A DNA stretch of 64,000 bases from Anas platyrhynchos (taxonomy: Eukaryota), in NCBI RefSeq assembly GCF_047663525.1, contig NC_092619.1, positions 4,565,441-4,629,440 of the forward strand, written 5' to 3'. Below, in pieces: positions 47,101-56,100 of the stretch; positions within the stretch are counted from its first letter, which is position 1; every line of letters begins with the position of its first letter. Made by a program: the position numbers.

Positions 47101-50100
47101 TCTTTATTTAGAAGCTGTCTAACCTTTGCTGTGCTCCAAGCAGCCCTTCACAACCCCTTGATGCAATCAAGTCACTCTGCTTTCTGCACCTCACCACTGA
47201 CTCTTCTCTCTTGTAGGTCCCCAGAAAAACACTGCAGAACTTCAATGTGAGCTATGAACTTCTCTGCATGTTCGTGCCCTCGTTTTCTGAATGCATCACC
47301 CTCGCAAAACCACCTCCTGTCCCATTCAGGGCTCAAATGCATTTTAAGATGTTTGAGGACCCAGACAGTCCTTGATCTTTGCTCTCTGTCCTTGAGTTAC
47401 GAACTGGACAGTGCTGGAAGGTTCTGCTCTCCCACACCAGAGCAAGTACATCCTCCTGTTGCTCCGCTCCATTTCTGTACTTAGAAGCTGTCTCCCCTTT
47501 GCTGCACTCCAAGCAGCCTTTCCCAATCCCTCAAGGTAATCATGTCACCTTGCATTCTGTACCTCACCACTTACTCCTTTCTCTTGCAGCTCCCCAGTAT
47601 CCGTCTGAACCTGTACGTCAGGGCGGTAAGTGCTGAGTGAGCTCAGAACTGCTCATCACCATCATGCCCTTTTTTTCTGAATGCATCACTCTCCCAGACT
47701 CCCCTCCTGTCCCATTTAGTGCAATAATGAAGTTCAAGATGGATGAGGATGCACGCAGTCCTTGCCTTTTGGTCCCTGTCCTTGAGCTATGCACTGGACA
47801 GTGCTGGAAGGTGCTGCTCTCCCACACCAGAGCAATACCTCCTCCCATCGCTTGGCTGCATTTATTTTCTTTAGAAGCTCTCTTTCCTTTGCTGTGCTCC
47901 AAGCAGCCTTTCCCAAGCCCTCAAGGCAATCATGTCACCCTGCATTCTGTACCTCACCACTTACTCCTCTCTCTTTCAGGTCCCCGGGCACAGTCTTTCA
48001 TTAAATTTCACGGTGGTAAGTGCTGGGTGAACTCTGAACTGTTCAGAATTGTCATCCCCTCATTTTCTGAATGCATCACCCTCCCAAAGTCACCTCCTGT
48101 CCCATTCAGTGCTCTAATGCATTTTAAGGTGGCTGAAAATCCAGGTAGTCCTTGGCCCGTGGTCCCCATCCTCGAGCTATGCACTGGACAGTGCTGGAAG
48201 GTGCTGCTCTTCCATAACAGAGCAAGTACTTGTTTGTGTTGCTCAGCTGCATTTCTTTTACTTAAAAGCTGCCTCTCCTTTGCTCTGCTCCAGGCAGCCT
48301 TTCCCAAGCCCTCGAGGCAATCAGGTCACCCTGCTTCCTGTACCTCACCACTGACTCCTCTCTCCTCCAGGTCTCTGGGCAGTCTGGCCTTAGTAATCAG
48401 GGCGATAAGTGCTGAGTGAGCTCTGAATTGCTCAGTGTCATCATCTTCTTATTTTCTTAATGTATCACCCTCCCAAAATCCCCTCAGGATATACCCTTCC
48501 AGAAGCAGAGCTGGCATTGAGTTTCCAACTTTTACCTGTGCATCCACAGCAGGCACCTGGCTCCACTACAGACTGAGCCTTGGAGGGAAAAATCTCTCCA
48601 CTTCTGAGATGACAGGCTACAAAACTATGAAATTTTGGCTATGAAAGCCAAAGAAATTATGGCTGAACCTAGATGTTCCTCATGAGGAAATGCAACACAG
48701 CGAGTATCTCCCTTCAGCCAAGCCCAGACCTGTCCTGGGCAGTGGAGTGGAGGGATCCAAGTCCACCTTTCTTCTCACTGCTGGAGAGAGAGAAAAAACC
48801 ACCTCAGCTGGAGCAAGGTGGGCCACAATCTCAGCTCCACTTTGAGTAGCCACTCAAGACTCAAAGTGTACATGCAAAGGCAGCAAAGTATCTTGCAAAC
48901 ATAATCAGGGAATAGCACAAAGGGGGCTCCCATGTGGCTATGCCTCACAGCAGGGAGGGTTCCACTGACTTCACTCCAGTTCTCTTCCCAGTATCATTCA
49001 GGATAAGAAAATCAGAAACATTCCTGGCAAGTGTATTATCACAACTGATAAAACAAAATTAAATTCACACTGCAGCCAAATACCTAAGAGCTGTGTGCAG
49101 AATGGAGAGTTACCCAAAGCAGCAGTTAGATCAATTCAAATTCTATGTAGTCATGCTACTTAAAATGTCTAACAATCTAGACAGTTCTTGGCTTTTGGTT
49201 TCCTCCTTCATAGTATGTCCTGAGCAATGATACAGCATGTCACTATTCCAGGAAGTGGCAAGTGTCTTCTACAGCTCAGCTGCATTTCTGTTTGCTGTTC
49301 CCCAAGCTGTCTTTTTCAAGGGATCTACTGGGAAATGGAAGTACAGGGAGGGTGGGAAGAGGCCATTCCTCAGGCCTCCTGCTGCTGAGCAAGAAATATG
49401 GGGCTTAAATGTCAGCTGGGATCTCTTGGCTTCAACCTTCATGAATAGACCCGCAAGGCAGGCAGAGGAAGGATCTCAAGAGGTTTAGGGGAAAATGTAA
49501 AGGTGGGTTCTGAACTGGGACAGCTCCTCTGGAGCATTCAGGCTCAAGTTCCTACAAGACCTCAGGAGTTGGGGAGGTCATCACAGCTCCTGAGGCCTTA
49601 GGGAGAAAGGATGCTCACTTGCTTGTTACTTGACAGCTACAGCTGGGGACTTGCCCTCTAAAAAGACAGACTGGTCGGACGAGGGCAGCAGCGTCCATGG
49701 GGCAGCAGTGTCCATGTTACCACTCTTTGGAGACATTGATAAGAGCACCAGTCCCAGTTCGGGCAGCAACACACGTTCAGGTGCCATCTGCATGTCATGT
49801 CGCGCTGAAGAGGTAAGGCAGTACTGGGTTCTCCTTACTCCTGTCCTCACCTTGGCTACAAGAGCTTCTTGGAGCTCCTCTCCAAGGGCAGCATGTGAGT
49901 GCATGAAGACATCCAGCAGCTGGGCTCAGGGTCTGCACATCTCTGCCTGCTCACGCTATTGTGGTTTCCCAGGCTACCCTTGTACACATCCATCTCTGGT
50001 GTTGACCAGCAAAGGGAAGTGAAAAGGGGGATTCATTTCCAGTCACTTCAGTGCATCTGGATACAATCCTAATGAGTTCTTTGACTCATTTCATGTGGGA

Positions 50101-53100: not shown

Positions 53101-56100
53101 TTTTGCAGGCAGTGGATGAGGATGAGAAGAGAAATGGACATTCGGTCTTGGTGCACAAACCTCCCAACACCATCCTGAGATTTAACAGGTGGTATCGTGT
53201 ATCCAGTTCTTCAAGGGCAGAGATAAACCCCAAAGTAAGTGAGCCTCGTACCTCACAACCAGGGTGAACAATAGTGTTCTCATGGATCATCCTGACACAC
53301 TACCCTGCCTCTTCTAGAAGCTGAAATTCACCTACCTGTCATTGGACAGACGTCAGCTCTTCACTGAGATCTACACCAAGGACATGGAGGAAGGAATGCA
53401 GCTCACCTTGACAAAGGCGGACCAGGAGGGCAAAAGGGACTGCGAGCCACTCTGGGACACCTTCCTTAGAGCAGGTAGGGAGAGCAGGATGCAGGTCTAT
53501 GTCACAGGTTCTGACAGGCTTGGAGGATGTCCAAATGTTCAGTCCCCTGCCCTGGGAAGGGAGCATGGTGCAGACATGCTCAGGTGCAGATGTTCAGACA
53601 TCAAATAATGCGCGTCCCATCCTCCTGTCTTCAATTCTTACTCTCCATTCTCCTTCTGTCTCTCCTCCAGGTGACATCAAGCAAGCCACCTCTTCCACTC
53701 CAACATGCTCAGGTTTGTTCATCTTTTGGGGTGTGTGGGTTTGGCAGGGAGGGCCAGGGAGAAGACATCACATGTGGAAGGAGCGTTTCCTCAGTCGTGG
53801 TGGCAGATTTCCCTTCAGCAGACATCCTCATCTCAGGGGAGAATGGCAGTAGACCTGTGTGGTGACAGGAGTTGGACTCGATGATCCTTATGGGTCCCTT
53901 CCATCTCGGGATGTTCTATAACTCTATGATTCTAGTATGACATCCAGGCGAGGGACAATGGGACAGTATGAGGACACAAGCTATTTCCACAGAATGCCAG
54001 CCATGGCTTTCCACCTAACCTGAGATCTTCCTTTCTGCTGCTCACCCATGCAGGTCACTCACTTTTGGAGCATGAGCCATCCTCTGCTCTCCAGGTCAGA
54101 CATAAAGGTGAGTTCATGACTGCTTTCCTTAACCCTAATACAGCCCAGACTGCCAGAGGGGGAAGGGCCATGAGGCCATAATGCAGAAGAATCTGTGGAC
54201 TCATGTGTCCCCTTCATCAGTGCTTCAGGATTCACTACAACACCAAAGAACCACAGCTCAGGGTTCTACATGCAGATGTCTTCCGAGCTGGTGCATCTCA
54301 GCTCCTGCCAGTGCAGAACTGGGGTTCCATCATGTCCCTCTGCTCATCCATATGGTCCCCTAGGAGACTCCCAGGAGGTCCCACTTTAGCTCCAAGAGGG
54401 AAGTGTCCCTGGACACAACTCTGTCCTATCTGCCAACAGAAGGTGTCCCCGACAGCCCCAGAGGATTATATCAAAGCCCCAAACCACTTCAGAGTTGTGG
54501 CCTATAAAGCACATCTCTAGAAATAGATTCTGACTAGGGTGAGGAGGACCAGGATGAGATCTGCTTTGAGGTCATGGATATCTCTCTCTCCTGCACAAAA
54601 TCTTAGTGGAAGTGGGAGATACAAGATGGATTAATTTTCCATGCCACCTATGCCCTAAGGGTCAAGGGACAGCAGTAACGGGACCTTCAGTATTAACATT
54701 GGTGGGTTGTCTCCTGCCAAGCTGGCAGCAGCACCCAACCATTCACCCTTCTGTGCATCTCCAGCCTGTGCACCAGGACAGCATTTTGTGGAGAAACACC
54801 GAGAGCAGCTGATCCAGCGTGTGACATCAGTCGACAGCATTCTGGATCGGCTCTACATGCGTGTTCTGAATGATGAGCAGTACAACCACATCCAAGCAAA
54901 AAGCATCAGGCAGGAGAAAATGCGCCTCCTCTACGACTTCATGTCCAGCTGGGACACCAACTGCAAGGACCTGTTCCTTGATGTGCTGGAGGAAACCAAT
55001 CCCTACCTCATCCAAGAGCTGAAGGATCGTGAGGGCCAACGTGAGGATGATGGTGGTTCCAAGTGAACACAGGACTTTGAGGACTCAGGGAGGGTGAGAG
55101 ATGGGGAACCCCAGGATGGGATCTAAGGACTCAGGGGAGCCTGCACTACAGTCTCAGGAGGAGCCAGCAGCCAGCGCTGCTGAGGGGGACTGATGAAGTA
55201 GTATGATAACCCTTCCTGTGCACTGCACCACGTGGGGAAAAAGCTGGCCCCAGAGCCAGCAGGTGTGAAAAGAAAGAAACAAAAAAAAAAAAAAAAAAAA
55301 GAAGAAAATAAAAAGTTGAAATGGTGCTTCCGAGCCAGGAATTGTCCTTAGAGCACAAGAAGACTGTTTGCACCCATGTTTGTCACTTCCCGTGTTCTGC
55401 CTGCACTCTGAGTGCTGTTCCAGCAGAGCCCAGGTTTACCAGCCCCACACGGCTGCCTCAGCTGCCCCTAAGGATACAGTGGCCTCAGGCATTGGGATGG
55501 CTCCTGGGTGTCCCCACAACTGACAGCTCCTGTCAGAAGACCCCCCCTGGGACAATAATCACCCCCACTGGCCCCTGTTGCCTTAGAGCTGCCCCCACAA
55601 TCATTTCCCACAACCTGGGTAACCCCGAGATCTCTGGCACCCCTGAAGACAGTGCCCTCACTGCCACTCCCTCAGCCCCCTCAGGGGGTGCCTGAGGAAA
55701 AGGGAGGGAGGGAAGCCAATAAGGGGAGTGAGGGATGCAAAAGAATAAAGTATTAAAGTATTAAGTACTTTACTGCACAAGTATTAAATACAGTATTTTT
55801 CAAGCTCTGATTCATTCATTCCACTGTCCTTGATGATGGTGATTGATATGGGGTATACAGGTGTTAGGTGATGCCTAATGTTTCATATCACCTTTTTAAA
55901 ACTTGAACTGTGAAATGGCTCCCTTGGTTTGAATCAACCTCTTCTGGAATTCCAAGCCTGGTCACCATATCTTTTAATAAGTACCTTATTATACTGCCTG
56001 CCGCTGCATTCCATAAAGGTGATTGCTTTGGGGCATCCTATTGTGGTAGGTATGCTCTTCTCCTGCACTTGACGGAAGTCTTCCTTGGGTTTATGAGCCA

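What the first reader, a model, noticed from the sequence alone, without database searches (positions are those of the whole stretch)
49637..55066. CARD8 / NLRP1-C-terminal-like gene (FIIND = ZU5-UPA, plus C-terminal CARD) without any NACHT-LRR in the 9 kb upstream
Five or six phase-consistent exons encode ZU5 and UPA subdomains. They align block by block with human CARD8 FIIND and are followed by a CARD exon with a stop. No NACHT or LRR coding sequence lies between the PYD-CARD gene and these exons. The gene is therefore CARD8-like rather than NLRP1-like, unless NACHT-LRR lies outside the window. FIIND-containing genes are few and functionally important as protease and pathogen sensors, so a bird ortholog or paralog deserves attention.
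Basis: partly seen in the sequence, partly recalled or inferred. Interest (0 to 1): 0.65.

Follow-up and report, generated by a model that had tools for sequence, protein, structure and literature searches.

The report
Bird NLRP1-like sensor lacking NACHT-LRR
The FIIND-CARD exons are real, but they are most likely the back half of one gene that starts with the upstream PYD-CARD exons: a bird inflammasome sensor with no NACHT-LRR, whose front end looks like the adaptor ASC that birds are reported to have lost.

Summary
On the + strand, GT-AG exons encode a ZU5-UPA FIIND with an intact SF|S self-cleavage site and a terminal CARD.

No NACHT or LRR is present. The upstream "PYD-CARD gene" splices in frame into these exons and gives one 610-aa ORF (42186-55066): PYD, CARD, linker, FIIND, CARD.

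RefSeq models with this architecture exist in swans and at least five galliforms. Alligators and turtles have PYD-linker-FIIND-CARD, also without NACHT. The FIIND-CARD resembles NLRP1 (247 and 235 bits) more than human CARD8 (167 bits). Birds also carry a separate CARD8-type gene.

Between the first CARD and the FIIND lies a 373-390 bp tandem array. Each unit carries a 30-36 nt, phase 1-1 cassette exon that black-swan isoforms combine in different ways.

The likely mechanism, inferred from NLRP1 and CARD8, is self-cleavage followed by release of UPA-CARD when the N-terminal part is degraded. This matters because the literature says birds lost ASC, and an ASC-like module sits in this gene. There are no transcript data for this species, and ruddy-duck annotation splits the locus into two genes.

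The parts
42186..42462 (+). Exon 1: start ATG (A at -3, G at +4) and the PYD domain. Ends in phase 1.
   Evidence: Pfam PYRIN E 1.7e-16. Donor GATG|gtaagt. 86% identical to the N-terminus of Cygnus olor P0002.
43040..43291 (+). Exon 2: CARD1, 252 nt, phase 1-1. If the donor is not used, the frame stops after 16 more codons (TAG 43339-41).
   Evidence: Pfam CARD E 7e-6. Splice sites. Best matches are turtle PYD-multiCARD proteins at 44-47% identity. The swan orthologue's PYD and CARD1 fold with pLDDT 81-95.
43582..48015 (+). Array of ten cassette mini-exons (30, 33 or 36 nt, all phase 1-1 and stop-free). They sit inside a 373-390 bp tandem repeat that is interrupted by a CR1 insertion at about 45.55-46.5 kb. 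Exons: 43582-614 AVQAQGSIILK; 43959-88 DPWEDIFYPQ; 44332-61 GPQKHTIELQ; 44705-40 GPRAQSGFSNQG; 45096-131 GLWAKSGLSNQG; 45486-521 GPPAQSVYIVPD; 46844-73 DPWEDIFYPQ; 47217-46 GPQKNTAELQ; 47590-625 APQYPSEPVRQG; 47980-48015 GPRAQSFIKFHG.
   Evidence: Tandem Repeats Finder. Splice-site and frame scan. The same peptides appear in different combinations in Cygnus atratus and C. olor isoforms and in Oxyura P0019. A homologous array is present in the Oxyura locus.
48550..48644 (+). Candidate alternative last exon. It starts in phase 1, encodes A-GTWLHYRLSLGGKNLSTSEMTGYKTMKFWL and ends in TGA. It would end a short PYD-CARD1-tail (ASC-like) isoform.
   Evidence: 84% identical to the tail of Oxyura LOC118159975 (P0019). 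Sequence read.
49637..49812 (+). Linker exon (phase 1 to 0). It encodes a Ser-rich, probably disordered stretch with a conserved CxxC...EE motif. It contains the internal ATG (49714) used by the ruddy-duck FIIND-CARD-only model.
   Evidence: Splice sites. 85% identical to P0002 residues 234-295. No Pfam hit. Invariant C271/C274 columns.
51497..51561 (+). Small exon DWAEEVKPEIIGDKRGKKEIY(R), phase 0 to 2. It is the conserved lead-in to ZU5.
   Evidence: D279, E282, P286 and E287 are invariant across birds, alligators and turtles.
51888..52108 (+). ZU5 exon a.
   Evidence: Pfam FIIND E 9e-23. 97% identical to swan. dN/dS 0.10 against Oxyura.
52236..52492 (+). ZU5 exon b and the start of UPA. It holds the self-cleavage motif S-F|S (F 52349-51, S 52352-54). 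The His ('IAHV') and Glu ('LLEKP') align with human NLRP1 H1186 and E1195.
   Evidence: Pfam FIIND plus UPA-FIIND. Alignment to human NLRP1 6x6c and rat 7crw. P-S-F-S and G are at least 90% conserved across 25 sauropsid proteins.
53109..53234 (+). UPA exon b.
   Evidence: Pfam UPA-FIIND E 6e-6. Splice sites.
53318..53474 (+). UPA exon c, ending in phase 1.
   Evidence: 83% identical to P0002 residues 521-573. Splice sites.
53671..53712 (+). Optional 42-nt cassette exon (G)DIKQATSSTPTCS, phase 1-1.
   Evidence: Sequence. Present in Oxyura P0001 and in swan isoforms.
54054..54107 (+). Optional 54-nt cassette exon (G)HSLLEHEPSSALQVRHK, phase 1-1.
   Evidence: Sequence. tblastn with P0002 residues 585-609. 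Present in swan and grouse models.
54765..55066 (+). Last coding exon: CARD2, with stop TGA at 55064-66. An alternative acceptor lies at 54777. AATAAA lies at 55307-12.
   Evidence: Pfam CARD E 4.8e-20. 46-54% identical to NLRP1, ASC and reptile FIIND-gene CARDs. Sequence.

Best explanation
Coordinates 49637-55066 are the 3' two-thirds of one gene of about 13 kb (42186-55066, + strand) in an anseriform-like bird.

The gene encodes a NACHT/LRR-less member of the NLRP1/CARD8 family of FIIND sensors. Its domain order is PYD, CARD1, a variable and probably disordered linker, FIIND (ZU5-UPA), CARD2. The linker is assembled from a tandem array of 30-36 nt cassette exons.

Shown here:
- The exons, their phases and the single ORF.
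- The domain identities.
- The intact SF|S site, with the His and Glu that align to human NLRP1 H1186 and E1195.
- The absence of NACHT and LRR.
- The same architecture in RefSeq models of swans and galliforms, and PYD-linker-FIIND-CARD in crocodilians and turtles.

Inferred from NLRP1/CARD8 biology (PMC11760013, PMC7857732):
- The protein cuts itself between F and S.
- The N-terminal piece (PYD-CARD1-linker-ZU5) stays bound and keeps UPA-CARD2 silent, probably together with DPP8/9.
- When a pathogen protease or ubiquitin ligase triggers proteasomal degradation of the N-terminal piece, UPA-CARD2 is freed and oligomerises.
- UPA-CARD2 then recruits caspase-1 by CARD-CARD contact, which leads to gasdermin cleavage and IL-1 maturation.

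The symmetric phase 1-1 exons also allow shorter products. These include an ASC-like PYD-CARD protein (through terminal exon 48550-48644, or by joining PYD to CARD2) and a FIIND-CARD-only form.
For: - Domains: Pfam; rat NLRP1 247 bits, human NLRP1 235 bits, human CARD8 167 bits.
- One ORF of 610 aa across nine GT-AG exons.
- Every optional exon is phase 1-1.
- No NACHT or LRR.
- Fused PYD+CARD+FIIND+UPA RefSeq proteins occur in Cygnus olor (691 and 703 aa), C. atratus (up to isoform X26), Meleagris (656 and 680 aa), Phasianus, Lagopus, Tympanuchus and Centrocercus.
- The black-swan isoforms retrieved here (X12, X19, X24, X25, X26) differ only in which mini-exons or CARD1 they include. That pattern suggests underlying transcript evidence.
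- Alligator and turtle orthologues are PYD-linker-FIIND-CARD, so an N-terminal PYD on this FIIND gene predates birds.
- The same exon order is present in the ruddy duck and guineafowl loci.
- Cleavage-site residues are conserved across 25 proteins.
- FIIND dN/dS is 0.31 against guineafowl and 0.52 against ruddy duck, and the ORFs are intact in both orders.
- In the swan orthologue the PYD, CARD1 and CARD2 fold confidently and the linker is modelled with very low confidence (pLDDT 20-28), consistent with disorder.
Against: - There are no RNA data for this species. The only close public contigs (L003, L004) are genomic.
- NCBI annotates the ruddy duck locus as two genes 1 kb apart. One is PYD-CARD1 with a tail (P0019) and the other is FIIND-CARD.
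- A plausible terminal exon with a stop lies at 48550-48644. CARD1 would stop after 16 codons if its donor were not used.
- Fused Gnomon models could include read-through transcripts.
- PYD+CARD1 (dN/dS 0.54-0.64) and CARD2 (1.1 against ruddy duck) are weakly constrained.
- AlphaFold2 did not fold the FIIND of the swan orthologue confidently (pLDDT 24-46), probably because the alignment had only 24 sequences.
- Every biochemical step (self-cleavage, DPP9 restraint, caspase-1 recruitment) is inferred and none was tested.
Confidence: 0.62

Rival explanations
1. There are two neighbouring genes. One is an ASC-like adaptor (PYD-CARD1 plus a short tail ending near 48644). The other is an independent CARD8-like sensor (disordered N-terminus, FIIND, CARD) that starts at or near exon 49637. 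On this view the fused models in other birds are read-through or prediction artefacts.
For: - Ruddy duck annotation has two gene calls: P0019 (201 aa, PYD-CARD) and a 446-aa FIIND-CARD.
- P0001 starts at the Met that corresponds to 49714.
- There is a terminal-exon candidate at 48550-48644.
- Ensembl goose P0018 and Muscovy duck P0252 are stand-alone PYD-CARD proteins.
- B10K names the Penelope orthologue 'ASC protein'.
- In a turtle, the CARD-only 'ASC' genes and the FIIND gene are annotated separately although they lie in tandem.
Against: - Phase-compatible junctions give one uninterrupted ORF.
- Fused models arose independently in seven species of two orders, with many isoforms.
- Alligators and turtles already have the PYD on the FIIND gene.
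- Ten mini-exons downstream of CARD1 keep their splice sites and open frame. That makes more sense for an internal linker than for a tail.
- The internal ATG at 49714 has a weak context, with T at -3.
Confidence: 0.27
2. The locus is a decaying relic (pseudogene) of a FIIND gene and makes no functional protein.
For: - dN/dS is near 1 for CARD2 and 0.5-0.8 for several exons against ruddy duck. Exon and intron identities are similar, at 91-96% and 90-95%.
- CR1 elements have inserted into introns.
- The guineafowl copy is fragmentary.
Against: - All nine core exons and twelve optional exons are open and have canonical splice sites.
- The catalytic motif is intact.
- FIIND dN/dS is 0.31 against guineafowl.
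- Intact orthologues exist across Galloanserae.
- The missing guineafowl exons coincide with an N-filled assembly gap at 9288-9977.
Confidence: 0.06
3. These exons are the 3' end of a classical NLRP1 whose NACHT-LRR exons were missed or lie outside the window.
For: The closest solved structures are NLRP1, and RefSeq names the orthologues 'NLRP1b allele 2-like'.
Against: - No NACHT or LRR lies between the PYD and ZU5.
- No NACHT-sized ORF or NACHT-type Walker A motif occurs anywhere in the 64 kb.
- The 42 kb upstream of the PYD holds olfactory receptor genes, a retroviral element and CR1.
- None of the orthologous proteins carries a NACHT Pfam domain.
Confidence: 0.02

Closest known systems
Mammalian NLRP1 (human NLRP1, rodent NLRP1a/b)
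   Same: [quoted passage not shown]
- It gives the best sequence match to the FIIND-CARD (rat 247 bits, human 235 bits).
- The SF|S site and the residues equivalent to H1186 and E1195 are conserved.
- There is a rapidly evolving linker upstream of the sensor core.
   Different: - NACHT and LRR are absent, and a CARD plus a repeat-encoded linker take their place.
- It is not a 1:1 orthologue, because mammalian NLRP1 and CARD8 cluster together to its exclusion.
Human CARD8
   Same: - It has no NACHT-LRR.
- A disordered stretch precedes ZU5.
- It has FIIND-CARD, and a FIIND-CARD-only isoform is possible here.
   Different: - Similarity is lower (167 bits).
- The bird protein most likely carries a folded PYD and CARD at its N-terminus.
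- CARD2 resembles NLRP1 and ASC CARDs rather than the divergent CARD8 CARD.
- Birds have a separate CARD8-named paralogue (P0227).
ASC / PYCARD
   Same: - Exons 1-2 encode PYD followed directly by CARD.
- The best solved-structure match to this pair is human ASC isoform 2 (65.7 bits across both domains).
- B10K and Ensembl call the orthologous pieces 'ASC' or 'PYCARD'.
   Different: - The CARD1 exon carries a strong splice donor and continues into a FIIND gene.
- Identity to canonical turtle ASC is only 36-44%, lower than to the turtle PYD-multiCARD genes.
- The PYD alone scores higher with the pyrin PYD.
- No PYCARD neighbours (FUS, TRIM72; named in PMC13076529) were seen among the window's long ORFs, but this was not searched for specifically.
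Sauropsid and amphibian 'NLRP1b allele 2-like / CARD8-like / uncharacterized' RefSeq proteins
   Same: This is the same family and in part direct orthologues:
- Swan and galliform PYD-CARD-linker-FIIND-CARD.
- Alligator and turtle PYD-repeat linker-FIIND-CARD.
- Gecko, frog and turtle (PYD)-CARDn-FIIND-CARD or -PYD.
   Different: - This window's species is not among them. The best identity is 81-88%.
- The number and sequence of the linker cassette exons differ between species.
- Crocodilians and turtles lack CARD1 in the orthologous gene.

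Membership tests
FIIND-containing inflammasome sensors (NLRP1/CARD8 family) | ZU5-like and UPA-like subdomains (Pfam FIIND PF13553 and UPA-FIIND PF23679) | tested here: met
   One search gives FIIND at 80.7 and 39.2 bits and UPA-FIIND at 27.2 bits on single exons. One search gives E 2e-72 over 342 residues to rat NLRP1.
FIIND-containing inflammasome sensors (NLRP1/CARD8 family) | Self-cleavage motif SF|S at the ZU5/UPA border, with the conserved His and Glu | tested here: met
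   'IAHV...LLEKP...DPSF|SPMGV' aligns with human NLRP1 H1186, E1195 and S1211-F1212|S1213. The motif is at least 90% conserved across 25 proteins. Only the sequence was tested. Cleavage itself was not.
FIIND-containing inflammasome sensors (NLRP1/CARD8 family) | Death-fold effector domain (CARD) directly after UPA | tested here: met
   Pfam CARD at 71.8 bits on the last exon. It is in frame with UPA exon c.
FIIND-containing inflammasome sensors (NLRP1/CARD8 family) | DPP8/9 restraint, activation by N-terminal degradation, caspase-1 activation | not testable with these tools
   This needs biochemistry. It is inferred from PMC11760013.
NLRP1 in the strict sense (an NLR) | Central NACHT NTPase domain | tested here: not met
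   Pfam on all + strand open segments of at least 45 aa between 42463 and 51887 finds only CARD and RVT_1. No NACHT-sized ORF. The three loose Walker-A pattern matches lie in unrelated contexts. The orthologues have no NACHT Pfam domain.
NLRP1 in the strict sense (an NLR) | Leucine-rich repeats between NACHT and FIIND | tested here: not met
   One search finds no LRR family.
NLRP1 in the strict sense (an NLR) | N-terminal PYD on the same polypeptide as FIIND-CARD | tested here: inconclusive
   The ORF is in frame and fused orthologue models exist. There is no transcript for this species, and ruddy duck is annotated as two genes.
CARD8 | Orthology to mammalian CARD8 | tested here: not met
   In the NJ tree, human and elephant CARD8 group with mammalian NLRP1 (bootstrap 100) and not with this gene. 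A separate bird 'CARD8' exists at 35-40% identity.
CARD8 | Architecture: unstructured N-terminus, FIIND, CARD, with no other folded domain | tested here: inconclusive
   This holds only for a possible internal-start isoform (ATG at 49714; ruddy duck P0001). The full ORF adds a PYD and a CARD.
ASC / PYCARD (tested for exons 1-2) | Bipartite PYD-CARD | tested here: met
   Pfam PYRIN and CARD on adjacent exons. The best solved-structure hit is ASC isoform 2.
ASC / PYCARD (tested for exons 1-2) | The protein ends after the CARD (an adaptor of about 195 aa) | tested here: inconclusive
   The CARD1 exon ends in CAG|gtaag and splices onward in the models. A short form is possible through the stop at 43339 or through exon 48550-48644.
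ASC / PYCARD (tested for exons 1-2) | Orthology to vertebrate PYCARD by sequence and synteny | tested here: inconclusive
   It is closer to turtle PYD-multiCARD genes (41-47%) than to canonical turtle ASC (36-44%), and the margins are small. Synteny with FUS and TRIM72 was not examined.

The most novel reading that the evidence does not exclude
ASC was not simply lost in ducks, geese and gamebirds. Its function may survive inside this gene.

The PYD-CARD module could act as the missing adaptor between PYD-bearing NLRP3 and caspase-1. It could do so as the N-terminus of the sensor, or as short ASC-like isoforms made by the phase 1-1 exon design (PYD-CARD1-tail, or PYD joined to CARD2).

In Anseriformes the tandem cassette-exon array may also be a multiplied, combinatorially spliced 'tripwire'. 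Its exon junctions rebuild (L/F/P)Q|G(P) sites that resemble picornavirus 3C and coronavirus 3CL cleavage sites. There are 7 QG dipeptides in 192 aa against 1.6 expected. The array might therefore bait viral proteases.
Probability: 0.22. Interest if true: 0.85.

Novelty: new variant of a known kind. Interest (0 to 1): 0.6.

Why it matters
Two recent papers (PMC11258412 from 2024 and PMC13076529 from 2026) state that nearly all birds, including turkey, lack ASC/PYCARD yet keep NLRP3. They leave open how bird NLRP3 reaches caspase-1.

This locus shows that Galloanserae keep an ASC-like PYD-CARD pair. Annotation pipelines file it under 'NLRP1b allele 2-like'. That gives a concrete, clonable candidate for the missing adaptor.

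The locus also shows that the bird 'NLRP1' counted in those surveys is not an NLR. It is a PYD-CARD-linker-FIIND-CARD protein.

The cassette-exon linker is a natural system for studying how bait regions of FIIND sensors diversify. Ducks and geese are reservoirs of influenza, picornaviruses and coronaviruses, so a lineage-specific protease or stress sensor is of practical interest.

If the two-gene reading is correct instead, the finding is an ordinary pair of already annotated genes.

Tried and rejected
- Direct transcript evidence. The close Logan contigs L003 (93.9% identical to 51401-53646) and L004 (97.8% identical to 52082-53277) are collinear with the genome, so they are unspliced DNA. 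P0020 and P0033 read through into introns. L005 is a turtle FIIND-UPA-PYD transcript from a paralogue.
- Looking up loci for P0002, P0005 and P0007 failed because those isoforms are not on record.
I scanned concatenated open segments instead.
The swan orthologue gave confident death domains but a low-confidence FIIND, so no fold search was run.
- The sigma-70 promoter and terminator scan does not apply to a vertebrate gene and was ignored.
- I considered and rejected three readings: NACHT-LRR outside the window, a pseudogene, and strict orthology to human CARD8.
- The second protein search did not return P0002 or P0005 although they match strongly. The word-indexed search is therefore not exhaustive, and absence of Neoaves or chicken hits is not evidence of absence.

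Full report
**1. The observation**

The window is vertebrate DNA. It contains CR1 reverse-transcriptase fragments, olfactory receptor genes and introns with GT-AG borders.

On the + strand, Pfam finds the following:
- FIIND in 51853-52212 (E 9e-23) and in 52142-52666 (E 7e-10).
- UPA-FIIND in 52142-52666 and in 53040-53264.
- CARD in 54659-55063 (E 5e-20).

I read the splice sites from the sequence. The exons are:
- 49637-49812
- 51497-51561
- 51888-52108
- 52236-52492
- 53109-53234
- 53318-53474
- two optional cassettes, 53671-53712 and 54054-54107
- 54765-55066, which ends in TGA; AATAAA follows at 55307

All phases fit. ZU5-UPA occupies four exons. The first two exons encode a conserved pre-ZU5 linker and not ZU5.

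The 353-aa FIIND-CARD matches rat NLRP1 (E 2e-72), human NLRP1 (9e-69) and human CARD8 (7e-48) over its whole length. 'IAHV', 'LLEKP' and 'SF|SP' align with human H1186, E1195 and F1212|S1213.

**2. No NACHT or LRR**

- The longest stop-free segments in the 64 kb are an LDLR-like ORF (496 aa), a CR1 RT and olfactory receptors.
- The three loose Walker-A pattern matches in the window lie in unrelated, non-NACHT contexts.
- Pfam on every + strand open segment of at least 45 aa between the PYD exon and ZU5 finds only CARD1 and a reverse transcriptase.

**3. The surroundings change the interpretation**

Upstream lie a PYD exon (42186-42462, with the ATG) and a CARD exon (43040-43291). The PYD exon ends in phase 1. 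The CARD1 exon is phase 1-1. Exon 49637 starts in phase 1. Joining the nine core exons gives one 610-aa ORF.

The closest database proteins come from Anseriformes, at 81-88% identity. Many of them are fused:
- Cygnus olor: 616-703 aa.
- C. atratus: up to isoform X26, for example 710 aa.
- Meleagris: two paralogues of 656 and 680 aa.
- Phasianus, Lagopus, Tympanuchus and Centrocercus.

All of these carry PYRIN, CARD, FIIND and UPA-FIIND and none carries NACHT.

Alligator and turtle relatives are PYD, repeat-containing linker, FIIND, CARD, without CARD1. An N-terminal PYD on this FIIND gene is therefore older than birds.

The ruddy duck and guineafowl loci show the same exon order. However, ruddy duck is annotated as two genes 1 kb apart.

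**4. The linker array**

Between CARD1 and exon 49637 lies a 373-390 bp tandem repeat, at 43653-45592 and 46589-48485, split by a CR1 insertion.

Ten units each carry a 30, 33 or 36 nt exon with a polypyrimidine-AG acceptor and a GTGAGC or GTAAGT donor. All are phase 1-1 and stop-free.

The same peptides (AVQAQGSII.., DPWEDIFY.Q, GPQKH...LQ, GPR.QSG...QG) occur in different combinations in black-swan isoforms. Some swan isoforms skip CARD1. Ruddy duck has a shorter array. Galliform linkers are also repetitive but unrelated in sequence.

A further exon, 48550-48644, matches the tail of the ruddy-duck PYD-CARD protein and ends in a stop. It could terminate a short ASC-like isoform.

The PYD exon ends in phase 1 and the CARD2 exon starts in phase 1. 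PYD can therefore also join CARD2 in frame. That junction is what the Ensembl turkey and goose 'PYCARD' models and a snapping-turtle 'ASC' model show.

**5. Relationships**

- PYD-CARD1 has human ASC isoform 2 as its best solved-structure match. Among reptile proteins it is slightly closer to the turtle PYD-multiCARD genes than to canonical turtle ASC.
- An exhaustive search found PYD/CARDn-FIIND-CARD or -PYD proteins in turtles, geckos, skinks and frogs. A turtle locus has three CARD exons, then ZU5-UPA, then a PYD exon, all on one strand.
- In an NJ tree of the FIIND, mammalian NLRP1 and CARD8 form one clade (bootstrap 100). The window gene sits in a Galloanserae clade (bootstrap 100) that groups only weakly with the turtle and alligator genes. 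A bird 'CARD8' (Odontophorus) is separate.
- The names NLRP1-like and CARD8-like are therefore best-hit labels and do not indicate orthology.

**6. Constraint and structure**

| Region | dN/dS vs ruddy duck | dN/dS vs guineafowl |
|---|---|---|
| FIIND | 0.52 | 0.31 (exons b-d) |
| PYD+CARD1 | 0.54 | 0.64 |
| CARD2 | 1.1 | not computed |

They fit a fast-evolving immune gene with intact ORFs.

AlphaFold2 on the swan orthologue folds the PYD, CARD1 and CARD2 confidently (pLDDT 81-95). It leaves the linker at pLDDT 20-28. It fails on the FIIND, probably because the alignment is shallow.

**7. Mechanism**

This section is inferred from NLRP1 and CARD8 (PMC11760013, PMC7857732).
- The protein cuts itself at F|S.
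- The N-terminal fragment, probably with DPP8/9, holds UPA-CARD2 inactive.
- Degradation of the N-terminal part releases UPA-CARD2.
- UPA-CARD2 then nucleates caspase-1 activation.

The role of the N-terminal PYD-CARD1 is unknown.

The anseriform linker rebuilds Q|G(P) at its exon junctions. There are 7 QG dipeptides against 1.6 expected, although the copies are not independent. This recalls the 3C cleavage site Q130|G131 of human NLRP1. It is a hypothesis only.

**8. Literature and verdict**

Bird ASC/PYCARD is reported as lost, while NLRP3, 'NLRP1' and CARD8 are reported as retained (PMC11258412, PMC13076529, PMC12066828). Searches for chicken, avian, duck or bird NLRP1 or CARD8 found nothing beyond the first of those papers.

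The gene itself is already in RefSeq for related species. Within the searchable open-access and bioRxiv library I found no description of the following:
- Its NACHT-less PYD-CARD-linker-FIIND-CARD architecture.
- The cassette-exon array.
- Its bearing on the ASC question.

The feature is a new variant of a known kind.

Noticed in passing
window 28254-30611 (+): One 496-aa stop-free segment (28741-30228) has six LDL-receptor class A repeats, a Ca-binding EGF domain and the C-terminal part of the avian retrovirus envelope protein gp85. A retroviral TM-like segment follows in another frame (30135-30611, '[24 protein letters not shown]'). A signal-peptide-like stretch precedes it. It looks like a host LDLR-family ligand-binding domain fused to an endogenous avian retroviral env, or a retrocopy inserted in one.
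   Followed up: partly
window 7341-8381 (+), 21784-22830 (+), 3025-3588 (-): There are two full-length olfactory receptor ORFs and one fragment (Pfam 7tm_4). The inflammasome gene therefore sits next to an olfactory receptor cluster and not next to the mammalian PYCARD, NLRP1 or CARD8 neighbours.
   Followed up: partly
window 43958-45600 versus 46843-48485: The cassette-exon array contains a higher-order duplication of about 2.9 kb. For example, the identical exon DPWEDIFYPQ occurs at 43959 and at 46844. A CR1 insertion (RT-like ORFs at 45711-46316) lies between the copies. The last unit (48370-48405) has lost its donor (GATAAG).
   Followed up: partly
window ~5.6-6.7 kb, ~19.1-20.2 kb, ~32.9-33.8 kb: Near-identical translated stretches recur at three places, one of them inverted. 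Examples are 'RSQDRHCDMSNHSWDMA.LEDSWGTLIYCT' and 'LPAKVVKRTGHEG...GWPGLWCRAGS.LCPRGCVPGQGLC'. They are probably flanks of duplicated olfactory receptor units.
   Followed up: no
L006 (Emydura macquarii) 1206-19205; proteins P0022, P0220: Turtles have a paralogue with several CARD exons, then ZU5-UPA, then a C-terminal PYD in place of a CARD. A Logan transcript (P0220) confirms that FIIND-UPA-PYD occurs as one mRNA.
   Followed up: partly
protein P0079 (Lerista edwardsae, 1489 aa): A skink protein model reads PYD-CARD, then a large P-loop GTPase-like region ('GVQSTGKSTLLHSMFG'), then FIIND-CARD. This suggests that different sensor or bait modules can sit between an ASC-like head and a FIIND-CARD tail. 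It could also be a gene-model fusion.
   Followed up: no
Galliform proteins P0183/P0184/P0005 versus P0189-P0193: Turkey and sage-grouse each have two paralogues of this gene with different repetitive linkers. One linker type contains 'SSSVSYPGGIEE' repeats.
   Followed up: no
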